Positions 925 through 31,893 of a stretch of DNA of 39,053 nt are shown piece after piece (within the stretch, counting starts at the first letter, position 1; every line of letters begins with the position of its first letter). The DNA lies in NCBI GenBank assembly GCA_964388425.1, contig CAYMAP010000002.1, positions 1 through 39,053 of the forward strand, written 5' to 3'. The DNA comes from an uncultured Planctomycetaceae bacterium (lineage in GTDB: Bacteria > Planctomycetota > Phycisphaerae > SM23-33). A program made the position numbers and the translations under genes. Below the pieces are notes generated by a model. The model did no database searches. It was given only the letters and a program-made list of their open reading frames with translations, and had not been told where the DNA came from.

Positions 925-926
925 GG

Positions 927-1301
927 TTACTGTCCTTTCTTCTTCATCGAACCGATGTTCAGGCTGCCGTCGGAGGAAGATTTCGAGGCCGGGCTTTGTT
1001 CGCCCTCGCCGGCTTCTTCGATTTCGGTGATGGGCGCGGTGGTGAACAGGTAGGTTTTCAGTTGTTCCTCGAAGCCGGGAAAGTTCCGGCGGAGCCATTC
1101 CAGAAGCATGCAGGCGTGTTCGATTTCTTCGTCGCGATTGTGTTCGAGGACGGCCCGGATGGTGGCGTCCTGCGTGACCGAGGCCCGTTCCTGGTACCAG
1201 GCGACGGCTTCGAGTTCTTCGATCAGGCTCGCCAGGGCGCGTTTCTGGTCCTTGACGGGCGGGGGGACGAGGTCGGGGGATTCATGCTGAGGCAGTGGCA
1301 T
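927..1301 (-). CDS. Encapsulated ferritin-like protein (EncFtn/Flp cargo), 124 aa
   Basis: It carries ferritin-like Glu/His motifs (LIEELEAVAWYQE and EEIEH). The C-terminal SDGSLNIGSMKKK resembles the GSLxIGSLK cargo-loading peptide. The RBS is aaaGGAattctcATG. Confidence 0.88.
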   Translation of the reverse strand: MPLPQHESPDLVPPPVKDQKRALASLIEELEAVAWYQERASVTQDATIRAVLEHNRDEEIEHACMLLEWLRRNFPGFEEQLKTYLFTTAPITEIEEAGEGEQSPASKSSSDGSLNIGSMKKKGQ

Positions 1302-6800: not shown

Positions 6801-7829
6801 TCAGTCGGACTGTCCGAAGAGCGAGCCGGTCTGCGTTTCGTCGTCGAGGTCGGCCAGCGGACGCGTGCGCTTGTACAGCCTCGTCTCCAACTGCCGGATG
6901 TACGGCGTGAAGTCGGAGGCCTCGTCGTGGTCCTCGTCGATGGCGTGGGCGAGCATCCACATCTTGGCGTCGAGGTTGTCGAGGTAGTGGATGAAGAAGG
7001 CCTCGGGAATGGCAGGGAGCTTCGGGCTGCCGAAGTCGTGCTGGCCGTGATGGCTGAGGATGAGATGCTGCAGGAGCGTGATGGTCTTGTGCGGGAAGGG
7101 CTGGCCCAGCTCAGCTTCCAGGGCGCGGGCCTTTTCCTGGACCCAGATGCAGGCGATGGCGAGGTGCCCGACGAGCATCCCGCGGTCGGTGTAGTGGATG
7201 GCCAGACCGCCGGAGAGCTCCGCGCTCTTGCCGAGGTCGTGTAGGAAGATGCCCGCACGGACGAGGTCGGCATCGAGCTGAGGATAGAGCGGCAGGAGGG
7301 CCTCGGCCGACCGGGCGATGTTGAGAGTATGTTCGATGAGACCGCCCTGGAAGGCGTGATGCATCTGCGCGGCGGCGGGGGATTTCTTGACGGCTGCGAC
7401 GAGTTTGCGGTCCTCGGTGAATTTCTTGACCAGAAGTTTGAGCGGGCGATTCCTGATTTTGCGGAGAAAGGCGGTCAGTTCGGACCACATCTCCTCGACG
7501 TCATATTCGCTGGCGGGGAGGAAGTCGGCGGTCTGGACCTGGTCGGGCGGGACGGGTCGACAGGCGTCGAAGACGATCTGCGGCTGGCCGCGGTAGTCCT
7601 CGACTCGCCCTTTGACGCGGAGGAACCCCTCGGGCGGGATGCCCTGGAAGATGCTCTCGGTGGCCTGCCACATCCTCGCCGGAATGCCGCCAGTGCGGTC
7701 CCCGAGGGTCGCGGAGATGTAGTACTCGCCCTTTTTCGTGGTGCGGAGGTCCTTGTCTCGCACGACGAAGATCTGGTCGACCGGCTGGCCGGTCTGGAGC
7801 TCGTTCACCCATGTACGCTCGGTGTCCAT
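6801..7829 (-). CDS. yhaM: YhaM-like 3'-5' exoribonuclease (OB-fold plus HD domain), 342 aa
   Basis: It has an N-terminal OB fold (..KKGEYYISATLGDRTGGIPARMW..VKGRVEDYRGQPQI) and an HD domain (HHAFQGGLIEHTL..FLHDLGK..SHHG). The ATG at 7829 is preferred, but a GTG at 7880 is an alternative start. Confidence 0.75.
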   Translation of the reverse strand: MDTERTWVNELQTGQPVDQIFVVRDKDLRTTKKGEYYISATLGDRTGGIPARMWQATESIFQGIPPEGFLRVKGRVEDYRGQPQIVFDACRPVPPDQVQTADFLPASEYDVEEMWSELTAFLRKIRNRPLKLLVKKFTEDRKLVAAVKKSPAAAQMHHAFQGGLIEHTLNIARSAEALLPLYPQLDADLVRAGIFLHDLGKSAELSGGLAIHYTDRGMLVGHLAIACIWVQEKARALEAELGQPFPHKTITLLQHLILSHHGQHDFGSPKLPAIPEAFFIHYLDNLDAKMWMLAHAIDEDHDEASDFTPYIRQLETRLYKRTRPLADLDDETQTGSLFGQSD

Positions 7830-7890
7830 GGGCGGGAGTCTACCGCGCCGCCGGTCCCGCCGCCACGAAGAATCCGTCACCCTTTTCTCA

Positions 7891-8751
7891 TCAATACTCG
7901 ACTGGCAGCTTCTGCACTTCCGCCAGGCTGAAGACCGGCCCGTCGATGCAGACGTACTTACTGCCGATGTTGCACCGGCCGCACTTACCGATACCGCATT
8001 TCATCCGCATCTCGAAACTCACGTAGACGTCCTCGGGGGAAAAGCCCAGCTCCTCCAGGACGGGGATGGTGAACTTCAGCATCACCGGCGGCCCGCAGAG
8101 CAGGCAGATTGCATTCTCCGCCGCCGGCTCGACCTGCTCGAGCACCTGCGGGACGAACCCGACGTTTCGTTCCCAACCCTCCTCGGCCTGGTCGATCGTC
8201 AGGTGTACGTCGATGTCGTCCCGGCCTTCCCAGTCGAGGAACTCCTCGCGGTAGCACAGCTCCCCGCTGCTCCGCGCGCCGTACACGGTGACGATATCGC
8301 CCACCGTCGGGCGGACGGTCTCGTCCAGCAGGTAGCGGATCGTCGAACGCAGCGTCGTCACCGCGAACCCGCCGGAGACCAGCAGCAGGTTCTTCCCCGC
8401 GAACCGTTCGATCGGATAGCCGTTGCCCAGCGGCCCGCGCAGCCCCATCTGCCGGCCCGGCTCGGAGCTGTGCAGAGCGTTGGTCACCACGCCCGAGGCG
8501 TAACGCTTGACCGTGAACTCCACGTAGTCCTCGTCGAGCGGGCTGGAGGCGATGCCGATCGGACTCTCGCCGTAGCCCAGCAGGCTGAGCTCGGCGAACT
8601 GGCCGACGCGGAAGTCGAAGGCTCGGCGATCCTCGGGGTTGCGGAACGTCAGCCGAAACGTCCGCAGATCGCGGGCGTCGTTTTCCGGGCGGATCTGGTC
8701 GATGACGACCGGGTAAGGAATGTACGGGTTGGCCTGGTGGGCTTCGGTCAC
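7891..8751 (-). CDS. FlxA-like / HydG- or AsrB-like FAD and NAD(P)-binding oxidoreductase subunit with C-terminal [2Fe-2S] motif, 286 aa
   Basis: The GTG start at 8751 overlaps the upstream stop (GTGA). It has a ferredoxin-reductase-like fold (..FRVGQFAELSL..SPIGIASSP..LVSGGFAVTTL..) and a C-terminal CGIGKCGRCNIG..C motif. Confidence 0.75.
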   Translation of the reverse strand: MTEAHQANPYIPYPVVIDQIRPENDARDLRTFRLTFRNPEDRRAFDFRVGQFAELSLLGYGESPIGIASSPLDEDYVEFTVKRYASGVVTNALHSSEPGRQMGLRGPLGNGYPIERFAGKNLLLVSGGFAVTTLRSTIRYLLDETVRPTVGDIVTVYGARSSGELCYREEFLDWEGRDDIDVHLTIDQAEEGWERNVGFVPQVLEQVEPAAENAICLLCGPPVMLKFTIPVLEELGFSPEDVYVSFEMRMKCGIGKCGRCNIGSKYVCIDGPVFSLAEVQKLPVEY

Positions 8752-9815
8752 GTTCCGTCTCCGGGGGGCTCGGGGCGGGTCTGCTCGATCCGAGTCAGGA
8801 TGTCGCGCAGGTCGTTGTTGGCCGGGCAGGCGTTGACGCACCGCCCGCAACCGACGCAGAAAGGCCTCTGGAAGTTGCGGTAGCCGTAGTTGAACTTGTG
8901 CATGATCCGCTGCCGGCAGCGCGGGTAGCGGTCGTCTCGCGGGTTGTGCCCGCTGGCGTGCTGCGTGAAGCCCTGGAACTGGCAGGTGTCCCAGTTCCGC
9001 ACCCGAGCGCCGGTTTGTCCGCGGGTCTCCTCGGAAATGTCGAAGCAGTGGCAGGTCGGGCAGAGGAACGCACACGCCCCACAGGAAACGCACTTGTGGG
9101 CGATTTCACGCCAGTAGTCGTCATCGAACATCGCGTCGAGTTTGTCCGCCAGCACCGCCGGATCGAACCCCGCGTCGATGTGCCCCGCCGCTTCGTCGCG
9201 CAGTCGTTTCAGGGTTGCAAGGTCCTCGGCGGTCGCTTCGCCAAAGGCGTCGCAGGCGTCGATCAGCTCCGCGCCGGTCTCCGTGAGCACCTCCGCGAGG
9301 TACCGCCCCGGGGCGACCTCCGCGAGGAACACGTCCGCGCCGTCGTTCGACAGCGGGCCGATGCCCACGAGGTGACAGAAGCAGGACTCCGGGTTCTGCT
9401 CGAACGGCACGCCGACGGCCACGATGGCCGTCATCGCCCGCCGGTCGAGATACGGCTTGTCGGGGTACGGCTCGGCGGAGAAGACCGCGTCCAGCACCCC
9501 CACCGCCGCGACGTCCGCCGGGTGCAATCCGAAGAGCACCTGCGACTGCGGGGGCTTGGGGGGGATAACCTCCTCGCTGTCCCGCCCCAGCCGATAATAA
9601 AACAGCACCTCGGTCCGCGGCAGGAGGGCTTCCTTGGGGCTGTTCCGCGGGACATCACCGATCGGCGAGACCGACGAGCCTTCGGTGACCCACTGGAACT
9701 TCCGCAGCCCGTCCGTGACGACCGGCGCGAAGACCTTCCGCAGCTGGAGAATCGAATTGACGAACAATCCCAGCTTCTCGGCCTCAATCGTTTTTGTCTG
9801 CAACACGTCGCTCAT
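8748..9815 (-). CDS. FlxB-like / HydB- or AsrA-like iron-sulfur subunit, 355 aa
   Basis: The Cys motifs are CVSCGACAFLCPTCHC and CVGCGRCVNACP. It lies immediately upstream of, and is coupled to, the FAD/NAD subunit, as in sulfhydrogenase beta-gamma, AsrAB and FlxBA pairs. Confidence 0.75.
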   Translation of the reverse strand: MSDVLQTKTIEAEKLGLFVNSILQLRKVFAPVVTDGLRKFQWVTEGSSVSPIGDVPRNSPKEALLPRTEVLFYYRLGRDSEEVIPPKPPQSQVLFGLHPADVAAVGVLDAVFSAEPYPDKPYLDRRAMTAIVAVGVPFEQNPESCFCHLVGIGPLSNDGADVFLAEVAPGRYLAEVLTETGAELIDACDAFGEATAEDLATLKRLRDEAAGHIDAGFDPAVLADKLDAMFDDDYWREIAHKCVSCGACAFLCPTCHCFDISEETRGQTGARVRNWDTCQFQGFTQHASGHNPRDDRYPRCRQRIMHKFNYGYRNFQRPFCVGCGRCVNACPANNDLRDILTRIEQTRPEPPGDGT

Positions 9816-9870
9816 GTTTTCTCACAGATGCTGTTCGTGTTCTTCCTGCCTTCGGTCTCCTGCCTTCTGA

Positions 9871-10818
9871 CTACTTAAAAATATCATTCACGTCTTCGAA
9901 CGTGAAACAGCCCAGCGGCGCCTGTGTTTCCGGATCCATCCCCGCCTCGAAGCCGTCGAAGAGATTCTTGACGTCCTTGCGGAGCTTGTCGTTGTAGACC
10001 CGCAGGTCCACGCCTACCGGGCAGGCCCGCACGCAGGCTCCGCAGCCGGTGCATCGCCCGGCGAGGTGGTGCAGCCGGGTCATGTGGAAGAACATCGCGT
10101 CGGCGGGGTCGTCGGTCTTGCTCATCCACTTGGGGTTCGTCGAGTCCGCGAAGCACTCTCCGCAATAGCAGGCCGGGCAGACGTTCCGACAGGCCAGGCA
10201 CAGCACGCACTTGCCCATCTCGGCCCGGAAGGCTTCCCAGCGGGCGGCGCTGTCGGCGGACTCGAGTTCCCCGACGCGCGGTGAGAGTTCCGTGAGCATC
10301 CCCTCGCCGGTCGGCTCGGCAAGGAGGTAATCGGCGAATCGCGGGTCCTCGCGGAACTCCGGGTAGATCACGTCCGCCAGCGCCAGCCGACGCTCCTTCC
10401 CGCAGGCCTGCACGACGACGGTCTCTTCCTCGACCGAAGCGCCGGTAAAACTCTCGGTTCCCACGGCCCGGGCGACGCGGCGGCGGTCGATCACGCCGTC
10501 GCACGGAGCGCCGAGGATCACCACCTCTTCGCGCTTGACCTGCCGCTCCTGAATCAGCCCGACGATGGACCGCTCGTCGCAGCCTTTCGCGACGATCGCG
10601 ACCTTCTGCCCGCGGAACTGGTGGAGGTAGTTGGCAAGGTTGTACTCGCACGTCCGGTCAAAAATCAGCCGCTCGGCCTCCTCCGGCGTGCGCGCGAACA
10701 AAGGCGTGGCCGTCAGCGGTCGGTGCCCGGCCTCGTAGCCGATCACCACCGAGACCTCGCCGTCGGCGAGCAGTTGCTTTGCGATCCGTTTGAGGTCCAC
10801 CACGTCGGCCACGTTCAT
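9871..10818 (-). CDS. FlxC-like iron-sulfur protein, 315 aa
   Basis: ORF 9871..11247 is trimmed to the ATG at 10818, which forms an ATGA overlap with mvhD. The Cys motifs are CVLCLACRNVCPACYC and CTGCGACVRACP. Its N-terminal half resembles that of the FlxB-like neighbour. Confidence 0.65.
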   Translation of the reverse strand: MNVADVVDLKRIAKQLLADGEVSVVIGYEAGHRPLTATPLFARTPEEAERLIFDRTCEYNLANYLHQFRGQKVAIVAKGCDERSIVGLIQERQVKREEVVILGAPCDGVIDRRRVARAVGTESFTGASVEEETVVVQACGKERRLALADVIYPEFREDPRFADYLLAEPTGEGMLTELSPRVGELESADSAARWEAFRAEMGKCVLCLACRNVCPACYCGECFADSTNPKWMSKTDDPADAMFFHMTRLHHLAGRCTGCGACVRACPVGVDLRVYNDKLRKDVKNLFDGFEAGMDPETQAPLGCFTFEDVNDIFK

Positions 10819-11315
10819 GCTCCCTGCTTTGCGGTTTCGTCGGCCAGCTCGGCCGGGAGGTCCCACAGCCGTTTGACCATACGATTCGCCGGGCCCAACG
10901 AACGGATGCTCTCGGTCACCTCGCGGATGACGTCGGCGAACTTCTGGCCCTCCGAGGCACTGACCCAACTGAACTGCACGCGCCCCGGCTCGAGCCCGCA
11001 GAACTCCAGCATCCGCTGGAGGACGAGGAACCGTCGGCGGGCGTAGTAGTTGCCCGTGAGGTAGTGGCAGTCGCCCGGGTGACAGCCGCTGACCAGCACG
11101 CCGTCGACGCCCTGCTGCAGCGCCCGCAGGATGAACATCGGGTTCACCCGCCCGCTGCACGGCACGCGGATGACGCGGACGTTCGGCGGGTACTGAATCC
11201 GCGAGACGCCCGCGAGGTCCGCCCCGGCGTAGCTGCACCAGTTGCACAGAAACGCCAAAATCCGCGGCTGAAACGCAGTGTCTTTCGCGTCGTGTTGTTT
11301 GCTGTTTTCTGTCAT
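10815..11315 (-). CDS. mvhD: MvhD/FlxD-type [2Fe-2S] electron-transfer protein (methyl-viologen-reducing hydrogenase delta subunit family), 166 aa
   Basis: It has the canonical motifs ILAFLCNWCSYAGAD, IRVPCSGRVNP and VSGCHPGDCHY. Confidence 0.9.
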   Translation of the reverse strand: MTENSKQHDAKDTAFQPRILAFLCNWCSYAGADLAGVSRIQYPPNVRVIRVPCSGRVNPMFILRALQQGVDGVLVSGCHPGDCHYLTGNYYARRRFLVLQRMLEFCGLEPGRVQFSWVSASEGQKFADVIREVTESIRSLGPANRMVKRLWDLPAELADETAKQGA

Positions 11316-11366
11316 GTCACACGAGTCCGGCCATTTCGCACTCCGCTTTCCACACGTCGCATTTGT

Positions 11367-14300
11367 CTACAGTTGCAGGATTTCCGCGAGGATCTGCTGG
11401 TTTGTAAAACCCCGCAGGTCCAGTGCCCCGGAGCGGCAGGCGGCGACGCACGCGCCGCAGCCCTTGCAGACGGCCGGGTTTACCTGGGCGCATTGCTTCT
11501 CATCCCGGCCGAGGCGGACTTTTTCCATCGTGATCGCCGAGTACGGGCAGATGCTCTCGCAGAGCCCGCAGGTTGCGCACTTCTCGGGGCTGCACTCGGC
11601 GATGGTGCCTTGGGTCTCGATTTCGCTTTTCTCCAGGACCGTACACGCCCGCCCGGCCGCGGCGAGGGCCTGGGCGACGGACTCGCCGGCGTTCTTGGGG
11701 TTGTGGGCCAACCCGCAGACGAACACGCCGTCCGTGGCGAACTCCACCGGCCTGAGCTTGACGTGGGCTTCCAGGAAGAAACCGTCGTCGTTGACGGGGA
11801 CCTTCAGCAACTTGCCCATCGCATCATTGGCGGGGACGTCCGGCTGAACGCCCGTGGAAAGCACCACCCAGTCGGCCGGTAACCTCACCGACCCTCCCAG
11901 CAGATCGGAGGTGACGGAAACCGCCAGCGGAAGTCCGTTCGACACGGACGGGACGTCCGTGCCACGAACAACATCCGGGAGCTGGTCATCCTCGAAGCGG
12001 ATGAACGTCACGCCCAGTTCCCGTGCGCGCTGGTAGTGTTGCTCGGCCAGGCCGTAGGTGCGGATGTCGCGGTAGAGGACCGTCACGTCCGTTTCGGGGC
12101 AACGTTCTTTCAGGGAGACGGCGTTCTGCACCGCCCGCGTGCAGCAGATTCGGCTGCACCAGGGGTGCTCGTCGCTCCGCGAGCCGACGCACTGGATCAT
12201 GACCACGCGCGATGGCGCTTCGTCGAAGGGTTCGGTTTCCTGGAGCCTCGCCAGCAGATCGACCTGCGTGATGACGCGCTCGTGGGAGGCGGCGTACTCG
12301 TCCTCGGCCGGCTCGTAGGGCTTGGCGCCCGTGGCGACGACGACAGCTCCGCAGGGCAGTTCCGTCCCGTCGGACAATTGCAGCGTGAAGTTCCCGACGA
12401 ACCCGTGGACGTCCGTGACGCTCGTCGCGGTGTGGACGGTGACGTTGGGATGGTTCCGCAGGGCCTGTTCCCATTCGGCGAGTTTCTGGCGGTAGTCCTG
12501 GCCCTCGAAGCCGCGGGGGACGTGGCGGAGGTTCCCGCCGAGCCGGTCCTCGCGTTCGATCAGGTGGACGGGGTAGCCGCGGTCGGCGATCGCCAGGGCC
12601 GCGTGCATGCCCGCGACGCCCCCACCGAGGACCGCGCCCTGCTGCTGGACGGCGACGCGCTCCGGGTGCAGCGCCTGGAGGTGCCTCGCCTTGGCGACGA
12701 TCATCCGCAGCAGGTCCCGGGCTTTTTCCGTCGCGGCCTCGGGTTCGTTCATGTGCGCCCAGGAGCACTGGTCGCGGATGTTGGCCATCACGAAGAGGTT
12801 CGGGTTCAGCCCCGCCTCGCGCAGCGTCTGCTGGAAAAGCGGCTCGTGCGTCCGCGGCGTACACGACGCGACGACCACGCGGTTGAGGTCGTGCTCGACG
12901 ATCATGTCGCGGATGTGGACCTGCGTGTCCTGGCTGCAGGTGTAGAGGTTGTCCTCGGCGTGGACGACGTTCGGCAGGGCCTTGACGTACTCGGCGACGC
13001 TGGGGACGTCGACGATCCCGCCGATGTTGATCCCGCAGTGGCAGACGAACACGCCGATTCGCGGCGGCTCGGCCGAGAGGTCCTTCTCCGGCGGGTACTC
13101 CGCCTGCCGCGTCAGCGTCCCCGTCGACTCGGCCAGCAGCCGGCCGGACTGGCACGCCGCCGCCGAGGCCTGCACGACCGTCTCGGGAATGTCCTTCGGG
13201 CCCTCGGCGACGCCGATGGCGAACACGCCCTTCCGCGAGGTCTCCATCGGCACGTCCGGGTCCGTCGCGACGAAACCGAACTCATTGACCCGGATGCCGA
13301 GCGTCCGGCAGAGGGCGCGAACCTCCGGCGGGGCCTGGAAGCCGACGCTCAGGACGACCATATCGAAGCTCTCGTGCTGCACGCCGTCGGCGGTTGCGAA
13401 GGTCAGCACGAGTTGCCCGCTCGCTTCGTCACGTTCGACGTTGCTGACCCGCGAGCGGACGAATCGCACGCCGTACTCCCGCTTGGCCCGGAGGCAGTAT
13501 TTGTCGAAGTCCTTGCCGTACGCCCGCAGGTCCATCAGGAACACCGTCGGCTGGACGCGTTTCTCGTGTTCGTGGGCGATGACGGCTTCCTTGACGGCGT
13601 ACATGCAGCAGACGCTCGAGCAGTACCCGTCGCGGCAGGAGAGGTCCCGCGAGCCGACGCACTGCAGGAAGGCGACTTTCTCGGGGACCTTGTGGTCGCT
13701 GGGGCGGACGACGTGCCCGCCCGTCGGCCCGGAGGCCGAGAGAATCCGCTCGAACTCCATGCTCGTGACGACGTCCGGCAGGCGGTTGCCGCCGAGGTCG
13801 AAGCAGGCCTGTTTTTCGTAGAGCCGCCCGCCGGGCGCGAGGATGACCGAGCCGACCTCGATGTCGCTGAACGTGGCGGTCTGGGAGTGGTCGACGGCGC
13901 GGGCCTGGCAGGCGCGGACGCACGCGCCGCAGTTGCTGCAGATGCCGCACTGCATGCAGCGGTCGGCTTCGGCGAGGGCGTCGGCTTCGCTGTAGCCCAA
14001 CTCGACCTCCTCGAAACTGTCCGTCCGGCGATCCATCGGAAGCGTGGGAATGATCTGGCGGGCGGCTTCCTTCTCCTTCCGGCCGGTCATATCCGGGTGG
14101 GCGACGCGCAGCGGGCTGACCGCCCGGGCGTGGGTCGGTTCTTCGGCGAGGTGGTGGGCGAGGTTGTCCGCGGCGTGTCGGCCGGCCGCGATCGCCTCGA
14201 TGACGCTCGCCGGGCCCGTCACGGCGTCCCCGGCGGCGAAGACGCCCGGCATGGACGTCTCCAGCGTTTCGTCGTCAACGTCCAGCGTTCCCCAGCGGGT

Positions 14301-15836: not shown

Positions 15837-16324
15837 GTCTGCGTTTCCTTCCGGATCGCTTCGATGGTCGTTTCGCAGGTCGCGGGGTTGTCGATGAGCT
15901 GTTGGACGAGCGCGCGGCGGGTCTGCTGGGCGAATTCGTCGAGCCGGCGGACGTTCTCCCATCGGTCGGCGGGGACGAAGCCCTCCGCGATCGCCATTTC
16001 TCGCAGGGCGCGCATCACGTCGCGGAACTTGACGTTCTGGGGGCACTGGCTGGTGCAGGCGTAGCACTGCACGCACCGCCAGAGGACCGGGTCGGAGAGG
16101 ACTTCTTTGCGCATGCCCAGGAGGACCTGGCGGATGATTTTGCGGGGGTTGAACTCGCTGTCGATGGCGGCGACGGGGCAGGCCGCGGTGCACGTGCCGC
16201 AGGAGAAGCAGAGCGTGACGTTCTGCCCGCCGGGGTGGGCGGCGACGTCGTATTTGAACTGCGGGTCGAGCTGTGTCGGGTCGATCGGATCGGCGGTCGG
16301 GGGGCTCGGCGTTGTCGGAGTCAT
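15833..16324 (-). CDS. HdrC-like 2x[4Fe-4S] protein, 163 aa
   Basis: ORF 15833..16963 is trimmed to the ATG at 16324, which forms an ATGA overlap with the metF stop. The motifs are CFSCGTCTAACP and CVQCYACTSQCPQNV, in an HdrC-like arrangement and length. Confidence 0.7.
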   Translation of the reverse strand: MTPTTPSPPTADPIDPTQLDPQFKYDVAAHPGGQNVTLCFSCGTCTAACPVAAIDSEFNPRKIIRQVLLGMRKEVLSDPVLWRCVQCYACTSQCPQNVKFRDVMRALREMAIAEGFVPADRWENVRRLDEFAQQTRRALVQQLIDNPATCETTIEAIRKETQT

Positions 16325-17307
16325 GCTACAGCCTTTCCGTCTTTGTCGGGGGCGTCGGGTGCGGGCAGGTCGGGTCGCGGGAGCAGGCCGGCGCGGTCGA
16401 GGATTTCCGGCACGCGTTTTTCCCATTCGATGGCCATCAGGTGGATACCCGCGACACCCTCGGTGTTGCGGAGGCGGTCGATCTGTTCGAGGCAGATCGT
16501 GATGCCTTCTTCCGCGCCGTCCTCGGCGGCGTCGAGGCGTTTGAGATATTCCTCCGGCACGGTGATGCCGGCGACGTGGCTGGCCATGTACTGGGCCATG
16601 CGGGCGCCCTTGAACGGCGTGAGCCCGGCCATGATGTAGCACTGCTCGTGCAGCCCGAGGTTGCGGACCTCGGCCATCCAGGCGTCGAAGCGCTCCATGT
16701 CGTAGATGCACTGGGTCTGGATGAAGTCCGCGCCGGCTTCGACCTTGCGAGCGAGTCGCTGGGCGCGGTAGTCCAGGGGCGTGGCGAAGGGGTTGGCGGC
16801 GGCGCCGATGAACAGGCGGATGGGCACGACGTCGGATTTTTTGGTGTTGCGGAGTTCCTCGCCGTTGATGAACTTCCCCTCGCGCATCGCCGCGGCGGTG
16901 CGGAGGAGTTGGATGGAGTCGAGGTCGTAGACGTGGCGGGCGGTGGGGTGGTTGCCGAAGCACTGGTGGTCGCCGGTCAGGCAGAGCAGGTTGCGGACGC
17001 CGAGGCAGTGGGCGCCGAGGAGGTCGGCCTGGATGGCCAGGCGGTTGCGGTCGCGGCAGGTCATCTGCATGACCGGTTCGAGCCCGCGGTCGACGAGCAA
17101 CTTGCTGACGCCGACGGAACTGATGCGGACGATGGCGGTCTGGTTGTCGGTGACGTTGACGGCGTCGACGGCTCCACGGAGGTACTCGGATTTCTTGTCG
17201 ACGACCGAGATGTCGGCGGACTTCGGCGGGCCGAGTTCCGCGGTGACGGCGAAGCGGCCGGCCGCGAGAGTGCGTTCGAGATTGCTGCCTGATTTCAGTT
17301 CGCTCAT
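16321..17307 (-). CDS. metF: Methylenetetrahydrofolate reductase, acetogen/anaerobe MetF type, 328 aa
   Basis: The product reads ..FAVTAELGPPKSAD..AVNVTDNQTA..QMTCRDRNR..NLLCLTGDH..FIGAAANPF..ADFIQTQCIYD. A MetV gene lies directly upstream. Confidence 0.9.
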   Translation of the reverse strand: MSELKSGSNLERTLAAGRFAVTAELGPPKSADISVVDKKSEYLRGAVDAVNVTDNQTAIVRISSVGVSKLLVDRGLEPVMQMTCRDRNRLAIQADLLGAHCLGVRNLLCLTGDHQCFGNHPTARHVYDLDSIQLLRTAAAMREGKFINGEELRNTKKSDVVPIRLFIGAAANPFATPLDYRAQRLARKVEAGADFIQTQCIYDMERFDAWMAEVRNLGLHEQCYIMAGLTPFKGARMAQYMASHVAGITVPEEYLKRLDAAEDGAEEGITICLEQIDRLRNTEGVAGIHLMAIEWEKRVPEILDRAGLLPRPDLPAPDAPDKDGKAVA

Positions 17308-17322
17308 GGAAAGTTCCTGGTG

Positions 17323-17997
17323 CTATTCGTCCAATACCGCGATGTCTTCGCGCGTGAGTTTTCGGGGTCGTCCGTCGTGCATTTTCGACCAGTCACGTGG
17401 GTCCTGGGCGGCGGTGAGGATGTCGAGCTGGTCGAGGGCGGTCAGGCGGTCGATGATCTTCGCCCAGCCGCACTCGATGTCGTCGGTGTCGACTTCGCAC
17501 ATGCCGTCGGCGGACCCGCCGCAGGGGCCGTTGCAGAGGCTCTTGCTGCACTGGCTGACGGGGCAGACCCCGCCGAAGATCCCGAGCTTGCAGTCCCCGC
17601 AGCCGAGGCAGGCTTCCGACCAGAGGCCGGCCCCTTCGTTGATGCCCATCATCTGCGTGTTCAGGGCGGGGTAGACGGGGAGGTTCTCGAAGCGGCGTGC
17701 GGCGAGTTGAACGCCCACGCCGCAGGCGGTGGAGACGATGGCGTCGGCCGGGCCGGGGAGGTCCTCGCCGGCGTCGAAAAATTCCACGTCGCACTGGCGT
17801 TCGAGGGTCTGTTCGGCGACGTTTTCGAAGTCTCCGCTGAGTCGCAGCAGGGAGGCGAGTGTGGCGACTTCGCGTTGTCCGCCGGCGTTGCAGACGCTGA
17901 CGCAGGTCTCGCAGCCGAGCACGAGGATGTTCTTGTGGCCGTGGTCGGTGAGATATCCGCGGACTTCGTCGATCGGTTTTTGTGTGGCTACGATCAT
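17323..17997 (-). CDS. metV: MetV (methylene-THF reductase C-terminal-domain-like Cys-rich small subunit), 224 aa
   Basis: ORF 17323..18468 is trimmed to the ATG at 17997, an ATGA overlap. The motifs are LGCETCVSVCNAGG.., ..CLGCGDCKLGIFGGVCPVSQCSKSLCNGPCGG... and CGW. It is adjacent to metF. Confidence 0.85.
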   Translation of the reverse strand: MIVATQKPIDEVRGYLTDHGHKNILVLGCETCVSVCNAGGQREVATLASLLRLSGDFENVAEQTLERQCDVEFFDAGEDLPGPADAIVSTACGVGVQLAARRFENLPVYPALNTQMMGINEGAGLWSEACLGCGDCKLGIFGGVCPVSQCSKSLCNGPCGGSADGMCEVDTDDIECGWAKIIDRLTALDQLDILTAAQDPRDWSKMHDGRPRKLTREDIAVLDE

Positions 17998-19652
17998 GGT
18001 GTGGTGCTTTCGGCGTTCGGCTCTCGGCCATCGGCGGAGAGCAGGTCGATGAGGCGGTGTGTTTCGGTGGCGATGAGGCTGCCCCAGGCGAGGCGGCTGG
18101 CGTCGAAACCGGCGGCGGTTAATTGCCGTTTCAGGCGGACGAGGCGTTTTTCCGCCCGCGTGGGGCCGTCGAGGTACTGGCAGGCGTCTTCGTTGCAGGT
18201 CAGGACCAGTACGCGGTCTGCGCCGGCTTCGAAGGCGGCCAGGACATTGCGGGGGTCGACCTGCGAGGCGCAGGGGACGCGGACGAGGTGGGTGTTTTTC
18301 GGGAGCCCCAGGCCCTGCTCGGCAGCGGCTTCGGCGGCGGGGTGGGCGGAGTTTTCGCAGGCGAAGACGACGGTCCGGCCGGGCTGGAAGTCGGCGCGGA
18401 GCTGCGGGTCGTCGTAGCCGGGGAGGGTGATGGCCTGGGCGGGGCACTCCGCGGCGCAGAGGCCGCAACGCTGGCAGGCGACGGGTGCGATACGGGCGGC
18501 CTGGTCGGCGGGGTCGAAGTCGATGGCGGCATGCGGACAGAGCCGCAGGCAGGTCAGGCAGGCCACGCAGGTCTCAGCGTCGACTTCGGCGGCTCCGCCG
18601 GGCAGTGTCCAGGTTTCCCCGACCAGCAGGTCCGCGACGTGGCCCGCGGTCAGGGCTGACTCGCGTCGTACGGCTTCGAGGTCGGCGTTGAGGTTCTCGG
18701 CCCCGAGGGCGAAGACGCCGGGGCGGGAGGTTTCCGTCGGGAGTTGCCAGACGTTCTCGCCCCGGCCGGTGGCTTTTCGGCAGCGGAAGATCGCCAGCAG
18801 GTCGTCCAGGGCGGTCGCCGGCAGGAGGTCGGCGGCGACGAACAGGTCGAACGTGCCCCGCAGGACCCGGCCGAGTTCGAGGTCATGTGCGGCGAGGGCG
18901 ACGCCGTCGGATTCTTCGCCGACTGTGGGCAGGCCGTCGTATCGGCAGAGTTCCACGCCGGCGGCGCGGGCGGCGCGGTAGACGCGCTCCAGCCCGGGCG
19001 AGCTGACGCGGACGTGCTTGCAATAGATGCGGATGCGCTGCGAGCCGCGCATTGCGAGGTAGCGGGCGGCGGCGAAGACGGTGGCGGTGGTCATCCGCCC
19101 CTGCTGGGCGACGGCGTCGGTGAGCAGGGCGACCGAGCGGGGGATGTAGCCCTTGCGGACGTTGAGCATCAGCCCGGGCAGGGTGGTGGCCCGGCGGGAG
19201 GTGTCCAGCCCGACGTCCTCCGGACGGGCGGGGGTGAACGGCTCGGGGGCGAGGACGACGGCCCCGGCAGGCAGTTCGATGGAGTTTTCTTCGCTGCGGA
19301 GCGTGACGCGGAAGTTCCCGGCCTGGCCGGTGACGCGGATGACGGCGGTGCCGGTCAGCACGTCGACGCGGTCGGATTGTTCCAGCCGTCGGGCGAGGTT
19401 CGCCAGGGAGTCGTCGAAGTCGGCGGGAACTTCGGCGTCGACGGCGGCGAGTTCGGCGAGGAAGCCCACCATCGCGCCGGTCAGGTCGTCGAGGGGCTTG
19501 TCCGCCGGGCAGGCGAGCGTGACGGCGGTGCCGCGGTCGGCCAGTTGCAGGGCGGTCAGGACCGCCGAGACGCCCGAGCCCACCACCAGTGCCCGCTGCG
19601 TGACGGGGATGGTGATCTCCGGGGGAGTCGACTGGGAGGCGGGTTGGATCAT
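17994..19652 (-). CDS. Degenerate HdrA-like protein with 2x[4Fe-4S] and a C-terminal MvhD-like domain, 552 aa
   Basis: ORF 17994..20336 is trimmed to the ATG at 19652, an ATGA overlap. It has a Rossmann-like VVGSGVSAV. The HdrA CVGSR/CC cysteine signature is absent (SVALLTDAV..TTATVFAAARY). The motifs CVACLTCLRLCP and CQRCGLCAAECP are present. The MvhD-like tail is VVFACENSAH..VRVPCASQVDP..LVLTCNEDACQY. Confidence 0.7.
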   Translation of the reverse strand: MIQPASQSTPPEITIPVTQRALVVGSGVSAVLTALQLADRGTAVTLACPADKPLDDLTGAMVGFLAELAAVDAEVPADFDDSLANLARRLEQSDRVDVLTGTAVIRVTGQAGNFRVTLRSEENSIELPAGAVVLAPEPFTPARPEDVGLDTSRRATTLPGLMLNVRKGYIPRSVALLTDAVAQQGRMTTATVFAAARYLAMRGSQRIRIYCKHVRVSSPGLERVYRAARAAGVELCRYDGLPTVGEESDGVALAAHDLELGRVLRGTFDLFVAADLLPATALDDLLAIFRCRKATGRGENVWQLPTETSRPGVFALGAENLNADLEAVRRESALTAGHVADLLVGETWTLPGGAAEVDAETCVACLTCLRLCPHAAIDFDPADQAARIAPVACQRCGLCAAECPAQAITLPGYDDPQLRADFQPGRTVVFACENSAHPAAEAAAEQGLGLPKNTHLVRVPCASQVDPRNVLAAFEAGADRVLVLTCNEDACQYLDGPTRAEKRLVRLKRQLTAAGFDASRLAWGSLIATETHRLIDLLSADGREPNAESTTP

Positions 19653-20767
19653 GCGGGCACCTCGCGGAGGTCGGCGGCGATGGCGCCTGCGGCGGCGCGG
19701 GCCTGGGCGATGGCCTGGGCGAGGTCCATGGGTCCCCTGCAGGCACCGGCGAGGTAGACGCCGTCGCGGTCGGAGAGTCCCGCGAGGTTGGCGAGCCTGG
19801 GCTGGAAGAAGCCCTGCGGGTCGGTCGCGATGCCGAGGCGTGCGGCGAGTTCGGCGGCGTCGGGGTTGCAACGCATGCCGATGGACAGCACGACGAGGTC
19901 GAACGTCTCGGTCTGGTCGGCGGTGGTCTGCTGGTCTTCGTAGAAGACGGTGACGCGGTCTTCGGGGGCGGCTTCGAGGCGGTACGGGCGGGCCTTGAGG
20001 AAGCGGACGGCCTGGCGGGTCTCGGCGAGGAAGGTTTCGAAGTCCCGCCCGAAGCGCTGGAGGTCCATGTAGAAGACGGTCAGGTCGGTTTCGTCGCGGA
20101 GGTGTTTCAGCAGGCGTGCCTGTCGGAGGGCGTAGGCGCAGCAGACGGTCGAGCAGTAGTCGGTCTGCTGGGGGCCGCGGTGGGTCTGTTCGGTTCGCGA
20201 GCCGACGCACTGGATAAAGGCCAGTCGGTCGGGGGCCTTGCCGTCGGAAGGGCGCAGGATCGGCTTGCGATCGCCGAGCATGGCCGCTTCGAGGTCGGCG
20301 GCGGTCAGGACGTTGGGCAGCCGGCCGTAGTTCCATGCGCGGTCGGTGGCGGCGTCGTAGGGCTCGAAGCCGGTGGCGAGCAGGACGGCGTCGGCGTCGA
20401 GCGCGTCCGGTGCGTTGTCGGGGGAGTCCAGTTCGACGGTGAATCGCCGGCCGTTACTGCCCGGCCGGAGGGCGCGGAGTTCCGTGTGGGTGTGGACGGT
20501 GATGCCGTCGGTCTGCCGGAAGGCCCGTCGGAGGAGGTTCTGGGCGAGGCAGACGTTGCAGCGAAGGCAGTGGTCGGTGGCCTTGCAGGAGAAGCGTGCC
20601 GCCCTGCCGCCGGGACATTCGCTGCGTTCGGCGAGGTGGACTTCGCACCCGGCGTCACGGAGCGACAAGGCCGCTGCGGCACCGGCAGGACCCGCACCCA
20701 AAATGAACACCCTCCCGAAAACCTCGTCGAGGGGGCGTTGACAGATGTCGATGGATCGAAGGTACAT
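19649..20767 (-). CDS. hdrA: HdrA-like FAD-dependent oxidoreductase core (no ferredoxin domains), 372 aa
   Basis: It carries the motifs VFILGAGPAGAAAA, FIQCVGSR..YCSTVCCAYALRQA and GVYLAGACRGPMDLAQAIAQA. It is the first gene of the redox operon. Confidence 0.8.
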   Translation of the reverse strand: MYLRSIDICQRPLDEVFGRVFILGAGPAGAAAALSLRDAGCEVHLAERSECPGGRAARFSCKATDHCLRCNVCLAQNLLRRAFRQTDGITVHTHTELRALRPGSNGRRFTVELDSPDNAPDALDADAVLLATGFEPYDAATDRAWNYGRLPNVLTAADLEAAMLGDRKPILRPSDGKAPDRLAFIQCVGSRTEQTHRGPQQTDYCSTVCCAYALRQARLLKHLRDETDLTVFYMDLQRFGRDFETFLAETRQAVRFLKARPYRLEAAPEDRVTVFYEDQQTTADQTETFDLVVLSIGMRCNPDAAELAARLGIATDPQGFFQPRLANLAGLSDRDGVYLAGACRGPMDLAQAIAQARAAAGAIAADLREVPA

Positions 20768-20948
20768 CGCTGTTTGGAGGATTGTAGCAGGATGGGTCTC
20801 ACAGACAAAACGGAATCGGGGAAATCAGGGCCATTTTTGTGAAGACGCCGGCGACGAACATGACGCAGTGCGGTGGATTTCCCTTGGCAGGATGTCGGCC
20901 TCCGTGGTACACCCCGTCTTTCCGATGCGACGCCGCGAGGAGACCACG

Positions 20949-30052: not shown

Positions 30053-30212
30053 TGATGACTCCTTTCGGGATATCCTTACTATCGGACGAAGGTCGGGCGG
30101 TGTCTACAGTCTCTGCAACATCGGCGGTGCAGAACCATCCCGGCTGGTGCGGAGGTTGTCGCCCGGAGCGGATTGGGGTATGATGGTCAGCGTCCTATTT
30201 CGGGAAAACACC

Positions 30213-31759: not shown

Positions 31760-31893
31760 GGCGGAAAGGCAACCGGCAACAGGAAAAAGAGACAGAAACA
31801 AGAACATGCTGGGTTCCGGAGGCTTGATGCTACAAACGGAGCCCGGGATGTCCGTGTACTGTTTCCAGCATCCAACACCCAGGAACGATATTC

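What the first reader, a model, noticed from the sequence alone, without database searches (positions are those of the whole stretch)
7891..20767. Ten-gene MetFV / Hdr / Flx redox super-operon with an unusual subunit set and no HdrB
Ten same-strand genes run hdrA-core, degenerate-hdrA::mvhD-like, metV, metF, hdrC-like, the 1489-aa HdrA-GltD/NfnB-HdrA fusion, mvhD, then flxC-, flxB- and flxA-like genes. Established knowledge covers two separate modules. One is the Moorella-type MetFV-HdrABC-MvhD methylene-THF reductase. The other is the Desulfovibrio-type FlxABCD-HdrABC NADH-linked module. Here parts of both are concatenated around an HdrL-type giant protein. The catalytic CCG-domain subunit HdrB is absent from the whole window; no CCG motif appears in any of the ten products. 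There are two MvhD-type modules, four HdrA-type flavin modules, and two candidate pyridine-nucleotide entry points (the GltD/NfnB-like module and the FlxA-like subunit). My inference is a large flavin-based electron-bifurcating or confurcating methylene-THF reductase complex in which methylene-THF replaces a heterodisulfide as the high-potential acceptor. I do not recognise this exact composition as characterised.
Basis: partly seen in the sequence, partly recalled or inferred. Interest (0 to 1): 0.8.

Follow-up and report, generated by a model that had tools for sequence, protein, structure and literature searches.

The report
HdrB-less Hdr-linked methylene-THF reductase operon
This is a real ten-gene operon for the methylene-tetrahydrofolate reductase step of the Wood-Ljungdahl pathway, wired to heterodisulfide-reductase-like flavoproteins and an NAD(P)H module; it is an uncharacterised but widespread variant of the Moorella-type enzyme and gives concrete candidates for that enzyme's still-unknown second redox partner.

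Summary
Ten minus-strand genes fill 7891-20767, six junctions overlap by 4 bp, and every domain call was reproduced. No CCG/HdrB domain occurs anywhere in the window.

- The 1489-aa "HdrL-type" fusion is not a foreign centrepiece. Published analysis shows that Moorella's own HdrA (1487 aa) has this same TrxR/GltD/HdrA architecture.
- So hdrC-like, giant hdrA, mvhD, metV and metF make up the Moorella-type MTHFR minus HdrB.
- The additions are a split HdrA-like pair (g1/g2) and an NAD(P)H module: sulfhydrogenase beta/gamma-like g9/g10 plus g8, whose Fe-S domain resembles the FdhB C-terminus.
- The composite is not unique. The same order recurs in Planctomycetota-like, Spirochaete and Bacillota MAGs and in metagenomes, next to fhs, folD, acsE and cdhD.
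- HdrB is absent throughout this cluster family. The module after MvhD varies between Flx-like, formate dehydrogenase and NuoEF-like.
- Only HdrA module 1 keeps the E/K bifurcation signature.

Best reading: an NAD(P)H-dependent, probably bifurcating MTHFR in which MetFV replaces HdrB. It is a new variant of a known kind. No biochemistry exists for it.

The parts
20781..20808 (-). Promoter-like site (TTGTCT-16-TACAAT with TG) 14 nt upstream of the g1 ATG. It lies in the divergent intergenic region shared with the lactate-transporter gene.
   Evidence: This is a consensus match only: 2 sites found against 0.6 expected in the region.
19649..20767 (-). g1: HdrA-core flavoprotein, the thioredoxin-reductase-like domain only (372 aa). 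It carries GAGPAG, the CVGSR...CSTVCC cluster motif, signature E160, and R215 in place of Lys.
   Evidence: Natural g1-g2 fusions of about 900 aa exist, for example P0144.
17994..19652 (-). g2: degenerate HdrA-like domain, then a 2x[4Fe-4S] ferredoxin domain (C362..., C393...), then a C-terminal MvhD/FlpD domain (428-537).
   Evidence: It evolves fast: 43% identity to L081, against 71% for g6.
17323..17997 (-). g3: MetV (PF12225), the Fe-S subunit of the MetFV reductase.
   Evidence: 5.7e-32. It is 68-71% identical in the syntenic loci L081/L082.
16321..17307 (-). g4: MetF (PF02219), the methylene-THF reductase catalytic subunit.
15833..16324 (-). g5: HdrC-like 2x[4Fe-4S] protein (C39..., C84...). 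No HdrB follows it.
   Evidence: (TIGR03290, 91 bits, profile positions 2-84 of 144; also the qmoC N-terminal part).
11367..15836 (-). g6: giant Moorella-type HdrA ('HdrL'), 1489 aa.
   Evidence: The architecture matches the published description of Moth HdrA.
13941..15359 (-). g6 residues 160-632: NfnB/GltD-like module (FAD site GAGPAG at 263, NAD(P)H site GGGNAA at 394, 2x[4Fe-4S]). It is inserted inside the inserted-ferredoxin domain of HdrA module 1.
   Evidence: (4ylf_B 4e-95, 5jca_L 3e-94).
13122..13940 (-). g6 residues 633-905: second half of HdrA module 1, with the cluster motif C726...C743C744 and the bifurcation signature E696/K749.
   Evidence: E696 = E356 and K749 = K409 of 5ODC chain A. 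One search shows both are invariant in about 88 homologues.
11370..13070 (-). g6 residues 923-1489: HdrA module 2 (N-terminal domain, TrxR domain without inserted ferredoxin domain, C-terminal 2x[4Fe-4S] domain). The signature positions are L1195/Q1237.
10815..11315 (-). g7: stand-alone MvhD/FlxD-type [2Fe-2S] protein.
   Evidence: (5.4e-58).
9871..10818 (-). g8: 2x[4Fe-4S] protein. Its C-terminal 110 residues resemble the C-terminal Fe-S domain of FdhB in the Fdh-MvhD-Hdr complexes. Labelled 'FlxC-like' by position.
   Evidence: (9t1s_M 5e-20, 7bkb_E 1.5e-19, 8rvu_E 4e-15).
8748..9815 (-). g9: sulfhydrogenase beta / AsrA-like Fe-S subunit ('FlxB-like').
   Evidence: 9nez_B 2.7e-41.
7891..8751 (-). 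g10: sulfhydrogenase gamma / AsrB / PyrK-like subunit binding FAD, NAD(P)H and a [2Fe-2S] cluster ('FlxA-like').
   Evidence: 9nez_C 1.7e-47; NfnA 4ylf_A 1.9e-16.

Best explanation
The ten genes form one operon. It encodes the methylene-THF reductase of a Wood-Ljungdahl pathway in a probable PVC-group (Planctomycetota-like) anaerobe. The enzyme is of the Hdr-linked 'type IV' kind known from Moorella and Sporomusa, in a variant that has no HdrB.

Proposed wiring (inferred):
1. The giant HdrA (g6) is a single-chain pseudo-dimer. It has one N-terminal domain, one inserted ferredoxin domain (split by an NfnB/GltD-like NAD(P)H-flavin module) and one C-terminal ferredoxin domain. Only its module-1 flavin keeps the E/K bifurcation signature, so that flavin is the likely bifurcation site.
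2. g10 (FAD, NAD(P)H, [2Fe-2S]), then g9, then g8 exchange NAD(P)H electrons with MvhD (g7). This mirrors the way MvhAG or FdhAB feed MvhD in methanogens.
3. The high-potential branch runs from HdrA through the HdrC-like g5 to MetV and MetF. There methylene-THF (E0' -200 mV) takes the place of the heterodisulfide/HdrB site.
4. The low-potential branch leaves through the ferredoxin-type domains. It goes either to ferredoxin or to NAD(P)+ at the second nucleotide site.
5. The g1/g2 pair is a second, asymmetric HdrA-like heterodimer tied to MetFV. Its role is unassigned.

The complex should be reversible (methyl-THF oxidation by confurcation).

Shown: gene content, domains, motifs, synteny and pathway context. 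Inferred: a single complex, the electron path, bifurcation and the identity of the low-potential partner.
For: - Operon structure: six 4-bp overlaps, the largest gap is 55 nt, a divergent gene lies upstream, and a promoter-like site sits just upstream of g1.
- MetF and MetV are identified with strong scores.
- g6 has the published Moorella HdrA architecture. E696/K749 are invariant across about 88 homologues, while the module-2 positions vary and are L/Q in the window.
- The same gene order is found in L023 (Spirochaete MAG), L026 (Bacillota MAG), L081, L082, L085, L083, L086, L105, L098 and L116. These loci are flanked by fhs, folD, acsE-like, cdhD or RACo.
- HdrB is absent from all of these loci, yet it lies adjacent to hdrL in 38 ORFs of other loci.
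- The module after MvhD is interchangeable between Flx-like, FdhA-containing and NuoEF-like, as expected for a plug-in redox-partner module.
- The g8 Fe-S domain resembles the C-terminal Fe-S domain of FdhB in solved Fdh-MvhD-Hdr complexes. g9/g10 match the NADP(H)-binding beta/gamma pair of sulfhydrogenase I.
- Natural g1-g2 fusions support a g1/g2 heterodimer.
- The Moorella complex oxidises NADH and reduces methylene-THF with viologens, and its second acceptor is unknown.
Against: - There is no expression, purification or activity data for any member of this cluster family.
- The window itself has no other Wood-Ljungdahl gene within 39 kb, so the pathway context comes from relatives.
- HdrL-MvhD occurs with MetVF alone and with the Flx-like module alone in many genomes, so the two halves can work separately.
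- The E/K signature is a literature rule of thumb taken second-hand.
- The roles of g1/g2 and the specificities of the two nucleotide sites are unresolved.
- An HdrB encoded elsewhere in the genome cannot be excluded.
Confidence: 0.55

Rival explanations
1. One transcript encodes two enzymes. The first is a MetFV reductase served by the g1/g2 HdrA-like pair and the HdrC-like g5. The second is a separate HdrL-MvhD-g8-g9-g10 enzyme that interconverts NADH, NADPH and ferredoxin in an Nfn/Stn-like manner. They are co-regulated because both serve the Wood-Ljungdahl redox budget.
For: - HdrL-MvhD-g8-g9-g10 occurs without metVF in L003, L015, L018, L021, L029, L057 and L071.
- metVF with g1/g2 and an HdrC-like gene occurs without HdrL nearby in L133, L137, L140-L147 and L152.
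- The inserted module is NfnB-like, and g10 is distantly NfnA-like.
Against: - g5 and g6 overlap by 4 bp.
- hdrC-like is followed directly by hdrL in essentially every class-A locus that extends that far.
- hdrL-mvhD-metV-metF adjacency without g1/g2 is the commonest context of HdrL (31 of 85 loci).
- Moorella HdrA of the same architecture co-purifies with MetFV.
Confidence: 0.2
2. A non-bifurcating electron-transfer chain. The Hdr-like proteins act only as wires and flavin relays, passing NAD(P)H electrons to MetFV. There is no second acceptor and no energy coupling.
For: - Module 2 of g6 and all of g2 have lost the bifurcation signature, and g1 has Arg in place of Lys.
- Non-bifurcating HdrA homologues are said to exist.
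- NADH to methylene-THF is exergonic on its own.
Against: - E696/K749 of module 1 are invariant in all homologues examined.
- Ten subunits and about six flavins are excessive for a simple NAD(P)H:methylene-THF reductase. In Acetobacterium the same job needs only MetFV plus RnfC2.
- Two separate nucleotide sites suggest more than one substrate couple.
Confidence: 0.15
3. A canonical Moorella-type MetFV-HdrABC-MvhD enzyme whose HdrB is simply encoded elsewhere in the genome and joins the complex in trans.
For: - Type I Acetothermia are reported to have metVF-hdrA-mvhD in one place and hdrBC elsewhere.
- Only 39 kb of this genome is visible.
Against: - HdrB is missing from every syntenic locus in several phyla. 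In other HdrL loci it sits directly beside hdrC/hdrL.
- g5 matches only the N-terminal 84 of 144 HdrC profile positions. This suggests the HdrB-docking part has diverged.
Confidence: 0.1

Closest known systems
Moorella thermoacetica MetFV-HdrABC-MvhD (Hdr-type, 'type IV' methylene-THF reductase; Mock et al. 2014 as summarised in PMC5861303 and PMC9430772)
   Same: MetF, MetV, a stand-alone MvhD and an HdrC-like protein are all present. Above all, the giant HdrA has the same layout: TrxR domain, ferredoxin domain split by a GltD-type FAD/NAD(P)H module, then a second HdrA. The lengths are 1487 and 1489 aa, and the module-1 signature is E696/K750 against E696/K749. Both are tied to the Wood-Ljungdahl pathway.
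   Different: There is no HdrB. The gene order differs (g1-g2-metV-metF-hdrC'-hdrA-mvhD-... against hdrCBA-mvhD-metVF). There is an extra HdrA-like pair g1/g2. An NAD(P)H module g8-g10 follows MvhD. The module-2 signature is lost (L1195/Q1237 against E1204/K1246).
Sporomusa ovata HdrCBA-MvhD-MetVF (PMC9430772)
   Same: It is an Hdr-linked MetVF with a tandem-TrxR HdrA in which only one flavin keeps the E/K signature.
   Different: Sporomusa HdrA lacks the GltD insert. HdrB is present. The enzyme is partly membrane-associated and is proposed to end an H2-driven respiratory chain. It has no Flx-like module.
Desulfovibrio FlxABCD-HdrABC (Ramos et al. 2015; recalled from the literature and from citations)
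   Same: An NAD(P)H/FAD/[2Fe-2S] subunit, two Fe-S subunits and an MvhD-like subunit are encoded next to an HdrA-type flavoprotein. The proposed logic is the same: NADH enters through the Flx module and reaches HdrA.
   Different: The acceptor module there is HdrBC acting on DsrC, and here it is MetFV. HdrA there is a single module. The gene order is reversed. Flx identity of g8-g10 could not be tested, because no reference sequence or HMM was available. There are no adh or dsrC neighbours.
Methanogen MvhAGD-HdrABC and FdhAB-MvhD-HdrABC complexes (PDB 5ODC, 7BKB, 8RVU, 9T1S)
   Same: HdrA domains, the cluster motif and the E356/K409 equivalents align residue by residue. MvhD acts as the adaptor. 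The g8 Fe-S domain resembles the C-terminal Fe-S domain of FdhB.
   Different: The donor is NAD(P)H rather than H2 or formate. The acceptor is methylene-THF rather than CoM-S-S-CoB. There is no HdrB with non-cubane clusters. The HdrA dimer is replaced by a single-chain pseudo-dimer plus a g1/g2 heterodimer.
NfnAB transhydrogenase and P. furiosus sulfhydrogenase I beta/gamma (PDB 4YLF, 5JCA, 9NEZ)
   Same: The g6 insert aligns over the full length of NfnB (4e-95). g9/g10 align over the full length of SHI beta/gamma. g10 is also distantly NfnA-like.
   Different: The NfnB-like unit is a domain inside HdrA, not a free subunit. No hydrogenase catalytic subunits are present.
HdrL of Desulfobacterium autotrophicum and Syntrophobacter fumaroxidans (PMC2702500, PMC5947623)
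   Same: It is a giant HdrA/GltD fusion followed by mvhD. In S. fumaroxidans it is followed by an FdhB/hydrogenase-beta-like Fe-S protein, as g8 is here.
   Different: Those loci are linked to dsrABC, hdrABC or POR and are discussed in relation to DsrC. None has been characterised biochemically.

Membership tests
Hdr-type (type IV) MTHFR, MetFV-HdrABC-MvhD | MetF catalytic subunit (PF02219) | tested here: met
   3.7e-41, residues 10-307, full profile.
Hdr-type (type IV) MTHFR, MetFV-HdrABC-MvhD | MetV Fe-S subunit (PF12225) | tested here: met
   5.7e-32.
Hdr-type (type IV) MTHFR, MetFV-HdrABC-MvhD | HdrA with tandem TrxR modules and a GltD-type NAD(P)H insert, as in Moorella | tested here: met
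   The layout and the E696/K749 signature match the description in PMC9430772. No Moorella sequence was aligned directly.
Hdr-type (type IV) MTHFR, MetFV-HdrABC-MvhD | Stand-alone MvhD | tested here: met
   FlpD 5.4e-58 (g7).
Hdr-type (type IV) MTHFR, MetFV-HdrABC-MvhD | HdrC (2x[4Fe-4S]) | tested here: inconclusive
   TIGR03290 scores 91 bits, below the 160 cut-off, and only profile positions 2-84 of 144 match. Both CxxCxxCxxxC motifs are present.
Hdr-type (type IV) MTHFR, MetFV-HdrABC-MvhD | HdrB with CCG domains (PF02754) | tested here: not met
   It is absent from the window and from all syntenic loci.
Hdr-type (type IV) MTHFR, MetFV-HdrABC-MvhD | NADH:viologen and viologen:methylene-THF activities; co-purification of the subunits | not testable with these tools
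   This needs biochemistry.
FlxABCD-HdrABC | FlxA-type subunit binding NAD(P)H, FAD and [2Fe-2S] | tested here: met
   at domain level only. The best solved relative is SHI gamma.
FlxABCD-HdrABC | Sequence homology of g8 and g9 to FlxC and FlxB | not testable with these tools
   No Flx reference sequence, HMM or solved structure was available. g9 is AsrA/HydB-like and the g8 C-terminus is FdhB-like.
FlxABCD-HdrABC | FlxD (MvhD-like) subunit | tested here: met
   (g7).
FlxABCD-HdrABC | HdrBC disulfide-reducing module, and a DsrC or alcohol-dehydrogenase context | tested here: not met
   There is no CCG domain and no adh or dsrC gene in the window.
NfnAB transhydrogenase | Free heterodimer of NfnB (GltD-like) and NfnA (PyrK-like) | tested here: not met
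   The NfnB-like unit is a domain inserted in g6. g10 matches NfnA only at 1.9e-16, against 1.7e-47 for SHI gamma.
HdrL (giant HdrA/GltD fusion followed by mvhD) | HdrA domains plus a GltD-type NAD(P)H domain in one polypeptide, with mvhD immediately downstream | tested here: met
   More than 7985 homologues were found, and about 1480-aa forms occur in many phyla.
QmoABC-like module (architectural analogy for g1/g2/g5, recalled from memory) | QmoA/QmoB sequence family membership; a membrane QmoC | tested here: inconclusive
   g5 hits the N-terminal part of the qmoC profile (1.6e-19, far below the cut-off). No qmoA or qmoB family appeared among the top hits for g1 or g2, which match HdrA2 best. 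g5 matches only profile positions 4-97 of the 360-position qmoC model.

The most novel reading that the evidence does not exclude
The complex is a self-contained, ferredoxin-independent 'transhydrogenase-coupled' methylene-THF reductase. NADH oxidised at one nucleotide site is bifurcated at the HdrA module-1 flavin. One electron pair goes to methylene-THF. The other goes, via MvhD and the sulfhydrogenase-like module or via the NfnB-like insert, to NADP+ at the second site. The net reaction is 2 NADH + CH2-THF + NADP+ -> 2 NAD+ + CH3-THF + NADPH. This would name the long-sought 'second acceptor' of Hdr-type MTHFRs, and it would explain why relatives swap in formate dehydrogenase or NuoEF modules at the same position.
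Probability: 0.15. Interest if true: 0.8.

Novelty: new variant of a known kind. Interest (0 to 1): 0.55.

Why it matters
The methylene-THF reductase step is the largest exergonic step of the Wood-Ljungdahl pathway. How Hdr-type enzymes conserve that energy is an open problem. Reviews list the second acceptor of the Moorella enzyme as '?', and the Sporomusa enzyme could not be coupled to NAD(P)H, ferredoxin or thiols.

This cluster family drops HdrB, the subunit whose substrate nobody could identify. It also places a defined redox-partner module after MvhD, which is otherwise an orphan adaptor. That module is NAD(P)H-linked here and is formate dehydrogenase or NuoEF in relatives. All candidate partners therefore sit in one operon, which is a tractable target for heterologous expression and cryo-EM.

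The finding also shows that this enzyme type is common in uncultured Planctomycetota-like, Spirochaete, Bacillota and sediment lineages. This matters for predicting acetogenic or reverse-acetogenic energy yields from MAGs.

Tried and rejected
1. The strict CCG regex was a poor HdrB detector. It found only some HdrBs in related loci.
2. An HMM built from all regex-positive ORFs was contaminated by HdrC-HdrB fusions and hit g5. I rebuilt it from HdrB-only ORFs.
3. The automatic g1/g2 presence flags were contaminated by paralogy with hdrL, so I ignored them. I used the greedy non-overlapping assignments instead.
The Planctomycetota/PVC attribution rests only on named relatives: the P0004 cluster at 70% identity to g6, and Lentisphaerae/Verrucomicrobia names among the g2 relatives.
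5. Mock et al. 2014, Pereira et al. 2011 and Ramos et al. 2015 are not held in the library. Their content is taken second-hand, or from memory.
6. Ten literature searches found no description of the ten-gene composite. The library lacks most subscription journals, so this is weak evidence of absence.
7. Terminator-like sites are at chance level (9 found, 9.9 expected) and say nothing about transcript ends.
8. No MetV relative has a solved structure, so no structure-based docking argument was possible.
9. I considered AlphaFold on g8 or on a natural g1-g2 fusion. I did not run it, because single-chain models cannot test complex formation.
10. I considered a Qmo-like reading of g1/g2/g5. It remains an untested analogy.

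Full report
**1. What is in the sequence**

The window is GC-rich (about 65%). Ten minus-strand genes fill 7891-20767 exactly as reported. Successive genes are separated by -4, -4, 15, -4, -4, 51, -4, 55 and -4 nt, so six junctions are ATGA-type overlaps. Five of the ten gene calls match products already in the public collection at identical length: g6 1489 aa, g2 552 aa, g4 328 aa, g7 166 aa and g10 286 aa.

Upstream of g1 lies a divergent MFS gene. A sigma-70-like site (TTGTCT-16-TACAAT) sits at 20808-20781 on the operon strand. Downstream, a yhaM-like HD/OB gene follows on the same strand, but it is not conserved next to the cluster in relatives. Terminator-like matches are at chance level.

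**2. Domain content**

Pfam and NCBIfam give the following:
- g1: HdrA-type thioredoxin-reductase-like flavoprotein.
- g2: a weak Pyr_redox region, two [4Fe-4S] motifs and a C-terminal FlpD/MvhD domain.
- g3: MetV (PF12225).
- g4: MetF (PF02219).
- g5: HdrC-like, matching only the N-terminal 84 of 144 profile positions.
- g6: HdrA segments plus a GltD/NfnB-like segment at 158-663.
- g7: MvhD.
- g8: a 2x[4Fe-4S] protein.
- g9: AsrA/HydB-like (Fer4_22).
- g10: AsrB/HydG/PyrK-like, binding FAD, NAD(P)H and [2Fe-2S].

No CCG domain (PF02754) appears in these ten products or in 20 flanking products. No classical CCG motif occurs in any frame of the window. An HdrB-only HMM built from HdrB ORFs of related loci finds nothing in the window at E<=10 with filters off, yet it finds 38 HdrB ORFs in other loci.

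**3. The giant protein is the known Moorella-type HdrA**

Kremp, Roth and Müller (PMC9430772) describe M. thermoacetica HdrA as a 162.8-kDa protein whose C-terminal part (aa 922-1487) is HdrA-like. [quoted passage not shown] The 'bifurcation signature' residues are E696/K750 and E1204/K1246, equivalent to E356/K409 of the solved methanogen HdrA.

Residue-level alignment of g6 to PDB 5ODC chain A gives the same plan:
- Residues 15-159 align to HdrA 146-290.
- Residues 160-632 form an NfnB-like insert (4YLF_B 4e-95, 5JCA_L 3e-94).
- Residues 633-833 align to HdrA 293-495, with E696 = E356 and K749 = K409.
- Residues 923-1077 align to the HdrA N-terminal domain (2-156).
- Residues 1307-1486 align to the end of the TrxR domain and the C-terminal ferredoxin domain.

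So the 'HdrL-type' fusion, named in D. autotrophicum (PMC2702500), is not a foreign element bridging two systems. It is the HdrA of the Hdr-type MTHFR. Accordingly hdrC-like, hdrA, mvhD, metV and metF here equal the Moorella set minus HdrB.

**4. State of the flavin modules**

I aligned about 88 full-length homologues. Module-1 E696/K749 are invariant. The module-2 positions are E/K in about half of them and variable in the rest:
- L1195/Q1237 in the window. This was confirmed by an independent alignment of residues 1053-1409 to solved HdrA.
- H/I in the closest relatives L081 and L082.
- S/K in L083 and Q/V in L085.
- E/K in the Spirochaete and Bacillota versions.

g1 keeps GAGPAG, the CxGSR...CSxxCC cluster motif and E160, but has R215 at the Lys position.

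g2 has GSGVSA, no acidic residue at the end of beta-2, no GG motif and no cluster motif. Longer g2 homologues (about 670 aa) keep an N-terminal domain and an intact FAD motif, but they also lack the cluster motif. Natural g1-g2 fusions of about 900 aa exist, for example P0144 from a Lentisphaerae MAG. These fusions argue that g1 and g2 form a heterodimer.

Between the window and L081, g1 and g2 are 46% and 43% identical. g3-g7 and g10 are 71-79% identical. 'Four HdrA-type modules, one degenerate' is therefore accurate, and by the literature criterion only one module is a clear bifurcation candidate.

**5. The 'Flx-like' genes**

No Flx reference sequence was available, so membership could not be tested. 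The nearest solved relatives are informative:
- g9 and g10 align over their full length to P. furiosus sulfhydrogenase I beta and gamma (9NEZ_B 2.7e-41, 9NEZ_C 1.7e-47). This is an NAD(P)H:Fe-S oxidoreductase pair.
- g10 is only distantly NfnA-like (1.9e-16).
- The C-terminal Fe-S domain of g8 matches the C-terminal Fe-S domain of FdhB in the methanogen Fdh-MvhD-Hdr complexes (9T1S_M 5e-20, 7BKB_E 1.5e-19, 8RVU_E 4e-15).

From my own knowledge of those structures, FdhB is the subunit that passes electrons to MvhD. The S. fumaroxidans HdrL locus has a similar FdhB/hydrogenase-beta-like Fe-S gene next to mvhD.

**6. Distribution and context**

g6 homologues of about 1480 aa are very common: more than 7985 hits, in Planctomycetota, Anaerolineae, Bacillota, Thermodesulfobacteriota, Asgard and other groups.

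Among 85 HdrL-centred loci, 31 carry metVF without the Flx-like genes, 14 carry g8-g10 without metVF, and 7 carry both. Six of those seven have the window's arrangement:
- L023, a termite-gut Spirochaete MAG, with folD and acsE-like upstream.
- L026, a Bacillota MAG, with fhs and folD downstream.
- L081, at 71% g6 identity, with an IS element inserted between g8 and g9 and with fhs and acsE-like upstream.
- L082, at 70% identity, whose cluster members are named Planctomycetota, flanked by fhs, acsE-like and folD.
- L085, with folD inserted between g2 and metV.
- L083, with NuoE/NuoF/FdhA genes inserted and with NfnAB, acsE, cdhD, cooC and RACo downstream.

The seventh, L025, pairs the two modules with different HdrA genes.

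A g2-centred metagenome scan shows 36 of 80 loci with g2-(folD)-metV. Of these, 25 extend to the hdrC-like gene. What follows is hdrL-mvhD and then one of:
- g8-g9(-g10): L086, L105, L098 and L116, plus L087 and L117 in which NuoE/F genes split hdrL.
- Nothing: L088, L095, L109 and L124.
- An FdhA-containing module: L090, L108, L114, L119, L091 and L097.
- A NuoEF-like module: L104, L111 and L154.

An HdrB-like ORF occurs in only 3 of these 85 loci, none of them next to this metVF arrangement.

The window itself has no other Wood-Ljungdahl gene. Here the cluster has been separated from fhs, folD and acsE.

**7. How it most likely works**

*Shown:* gene content, cofactor motifs, tight operon structure, conserved synteny with Wood-Ljungdahl genes, family-wide lack of HdrB, and a swappable module after MvhD.

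*Established knowledge:*
- In methanogens a donor module (MvhAG or FdhAB) feeds MvhD.
- HdrA-FAD bifurcates to HdrC/HdrB (high potential) and to ferredoxin (low potential).
- The Moorella complex oxidises NADH and reduces methylene-THF (E0' -200 mV) with viologens. Its low-potential acceptor is unknown.

*Inference:*
- g6 is a single-chain pseudo-dimer that retains just one N-terminal domain, one inserted ferredoxin domain and one C-terminal ferredoxin domain. This implies one functional electron path centred on the module-1 flavin.
- g10, g9, g8 and MvhD form one NAD(P)H-linked arm.
- The NfnB-like insert is a second NAD(P)H-linked arm, on the branch that leads to ferredoxin in methanogens.
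- The N-terminal-domain cluster, g5, MetV and MetF form the high-potential arm, with methylene-THF replacing the heterodisulfide.
- The low-potential partner is either ferredoxin or, if the two nucleotide sites differ in specificity, NADP+. The latter is the novel case, an option already floated for Chloroflexi clusters in PMC5736913.
- The role of g1/g2 is unassigned.

*Rivals:* two co-transcribed enzymes; a non-bifurcating relay; HdrB supplied in trans.

**8. Novelty and verdict**

Ten full-text searches found papers describing hdrABC-mvhD-metVF clusters in Moorella, Sporomusa, Anaerolineae, Actinobacteria, Acetothermia and 'Ca. Adiutrix', as well as HdrL and Hdr/Flox loci in sulfate reducers. 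None described the g1-g2-metVF-hdrC'-hdrA-mvhD-g8-g9-g10 composite or its donor-module variants. The library lacks many subscription papers, so this is weak evidence of absence.

I rate it a new variant of a known kind. Its main value is as a tractable, HdrB-free, all-in-one-operon form of an enzyme whose energy coupling is still unresolved. Interest 0.55.

Noticed in passing
window 20745-22232 (+); the likely true start is near 20946: The gene divergent from the operon encodes an MFS transporter. It scores above the curated cut-off for the L-lactate transporter family SfMCT (421 bits against 320) and only weakly for oxalate/formate antiporters. Lactate may be a substrate whose reducing equivalents are disposed of through this pathway.
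   Followed up: partly
window 127-1098 (-): This gene encodes a family 1 encapsulin shell protein (Linocin_M18, encap_f1, 278 bits). I did not look for a cargo gene.
   Followed up: no
window 2136-3242 (-): This is a URO-D superfamily protein with weak similarity to MtaA/CmuA-type corrinoid methyltransferases (1e-8 to 2e-12, far below the cut-offs). It may be relevant to methyl-group metabolism, but it lies 5 kb from the operon and has no corrinoid-protein neighbour.
   Followed up: partly
L081 16498-17697: In the closest genome relative a DDE transposase (IS element) sits between the g8 and g9 homologues. It interrupts the Flx-like module while all ten genes remain intact.
   Followed up: no
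L087 11019-16977; L117 14074-19977; L104; L083 4734-9810: In several relatives the hdrL gene is split or preceded by NuoE-like, NuoF-like and FdhA-like genes. A short N-terminal HdrA piece is followed by these genes and then by the rest of HdrA. The NAD(P)H-entry module thus seems to be exchanged between GltD-type and NuoEF/formate-dehydrogenase types.
   Followed up: partly
L090, L108, L114, L119, L122 (metagenome loci): In these variants a g8-like Fe-S protein plus a molybdopterin formate dehydrogenase is inserted within or next to hdrL in the same metVF cluster. This suggests formate-driven methylene-THF reductases.
   Followed up: partly
P0144, P0135, P0146, P0147, P0149, P0150, P0154: Natural fusions of g1-like and g2-like proteins, about 880-920 aa long, occur in Lentisphaerae and other MAGs. 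This is Rosetta-stone evidence that g1 and g2 interact.
   Followed up: partly
L132 and L149 (metagenome loci): Here g1-g2 homologues are followed by hdrC and a true hdrB, with no metVF. The g1/g2 pair can therefore also serve a classical HdrCB module, an arrangement that recalls QmoAB-HdrCB.
   Followed up: no
window 6801-7880 (-): The longest ORF of a yhaM-like 3'-5' exoribonuclease gene (HD plus OB fold) starts only 10 nt after the g10 stop, on the same strand. It may be co-transcribed, but it is not conserved beside the cluster in relatives.
   Followed up: partly
window 30024-33810 (+): This is a sulfate-assimilation cluster: an APS kinase, a CysD-like PAPS_reduct-domain protein and a CysN-APS-kinase fusion. 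APS kinase therefore occurs twice. It is unrelated to the finding.
   Followed up: no
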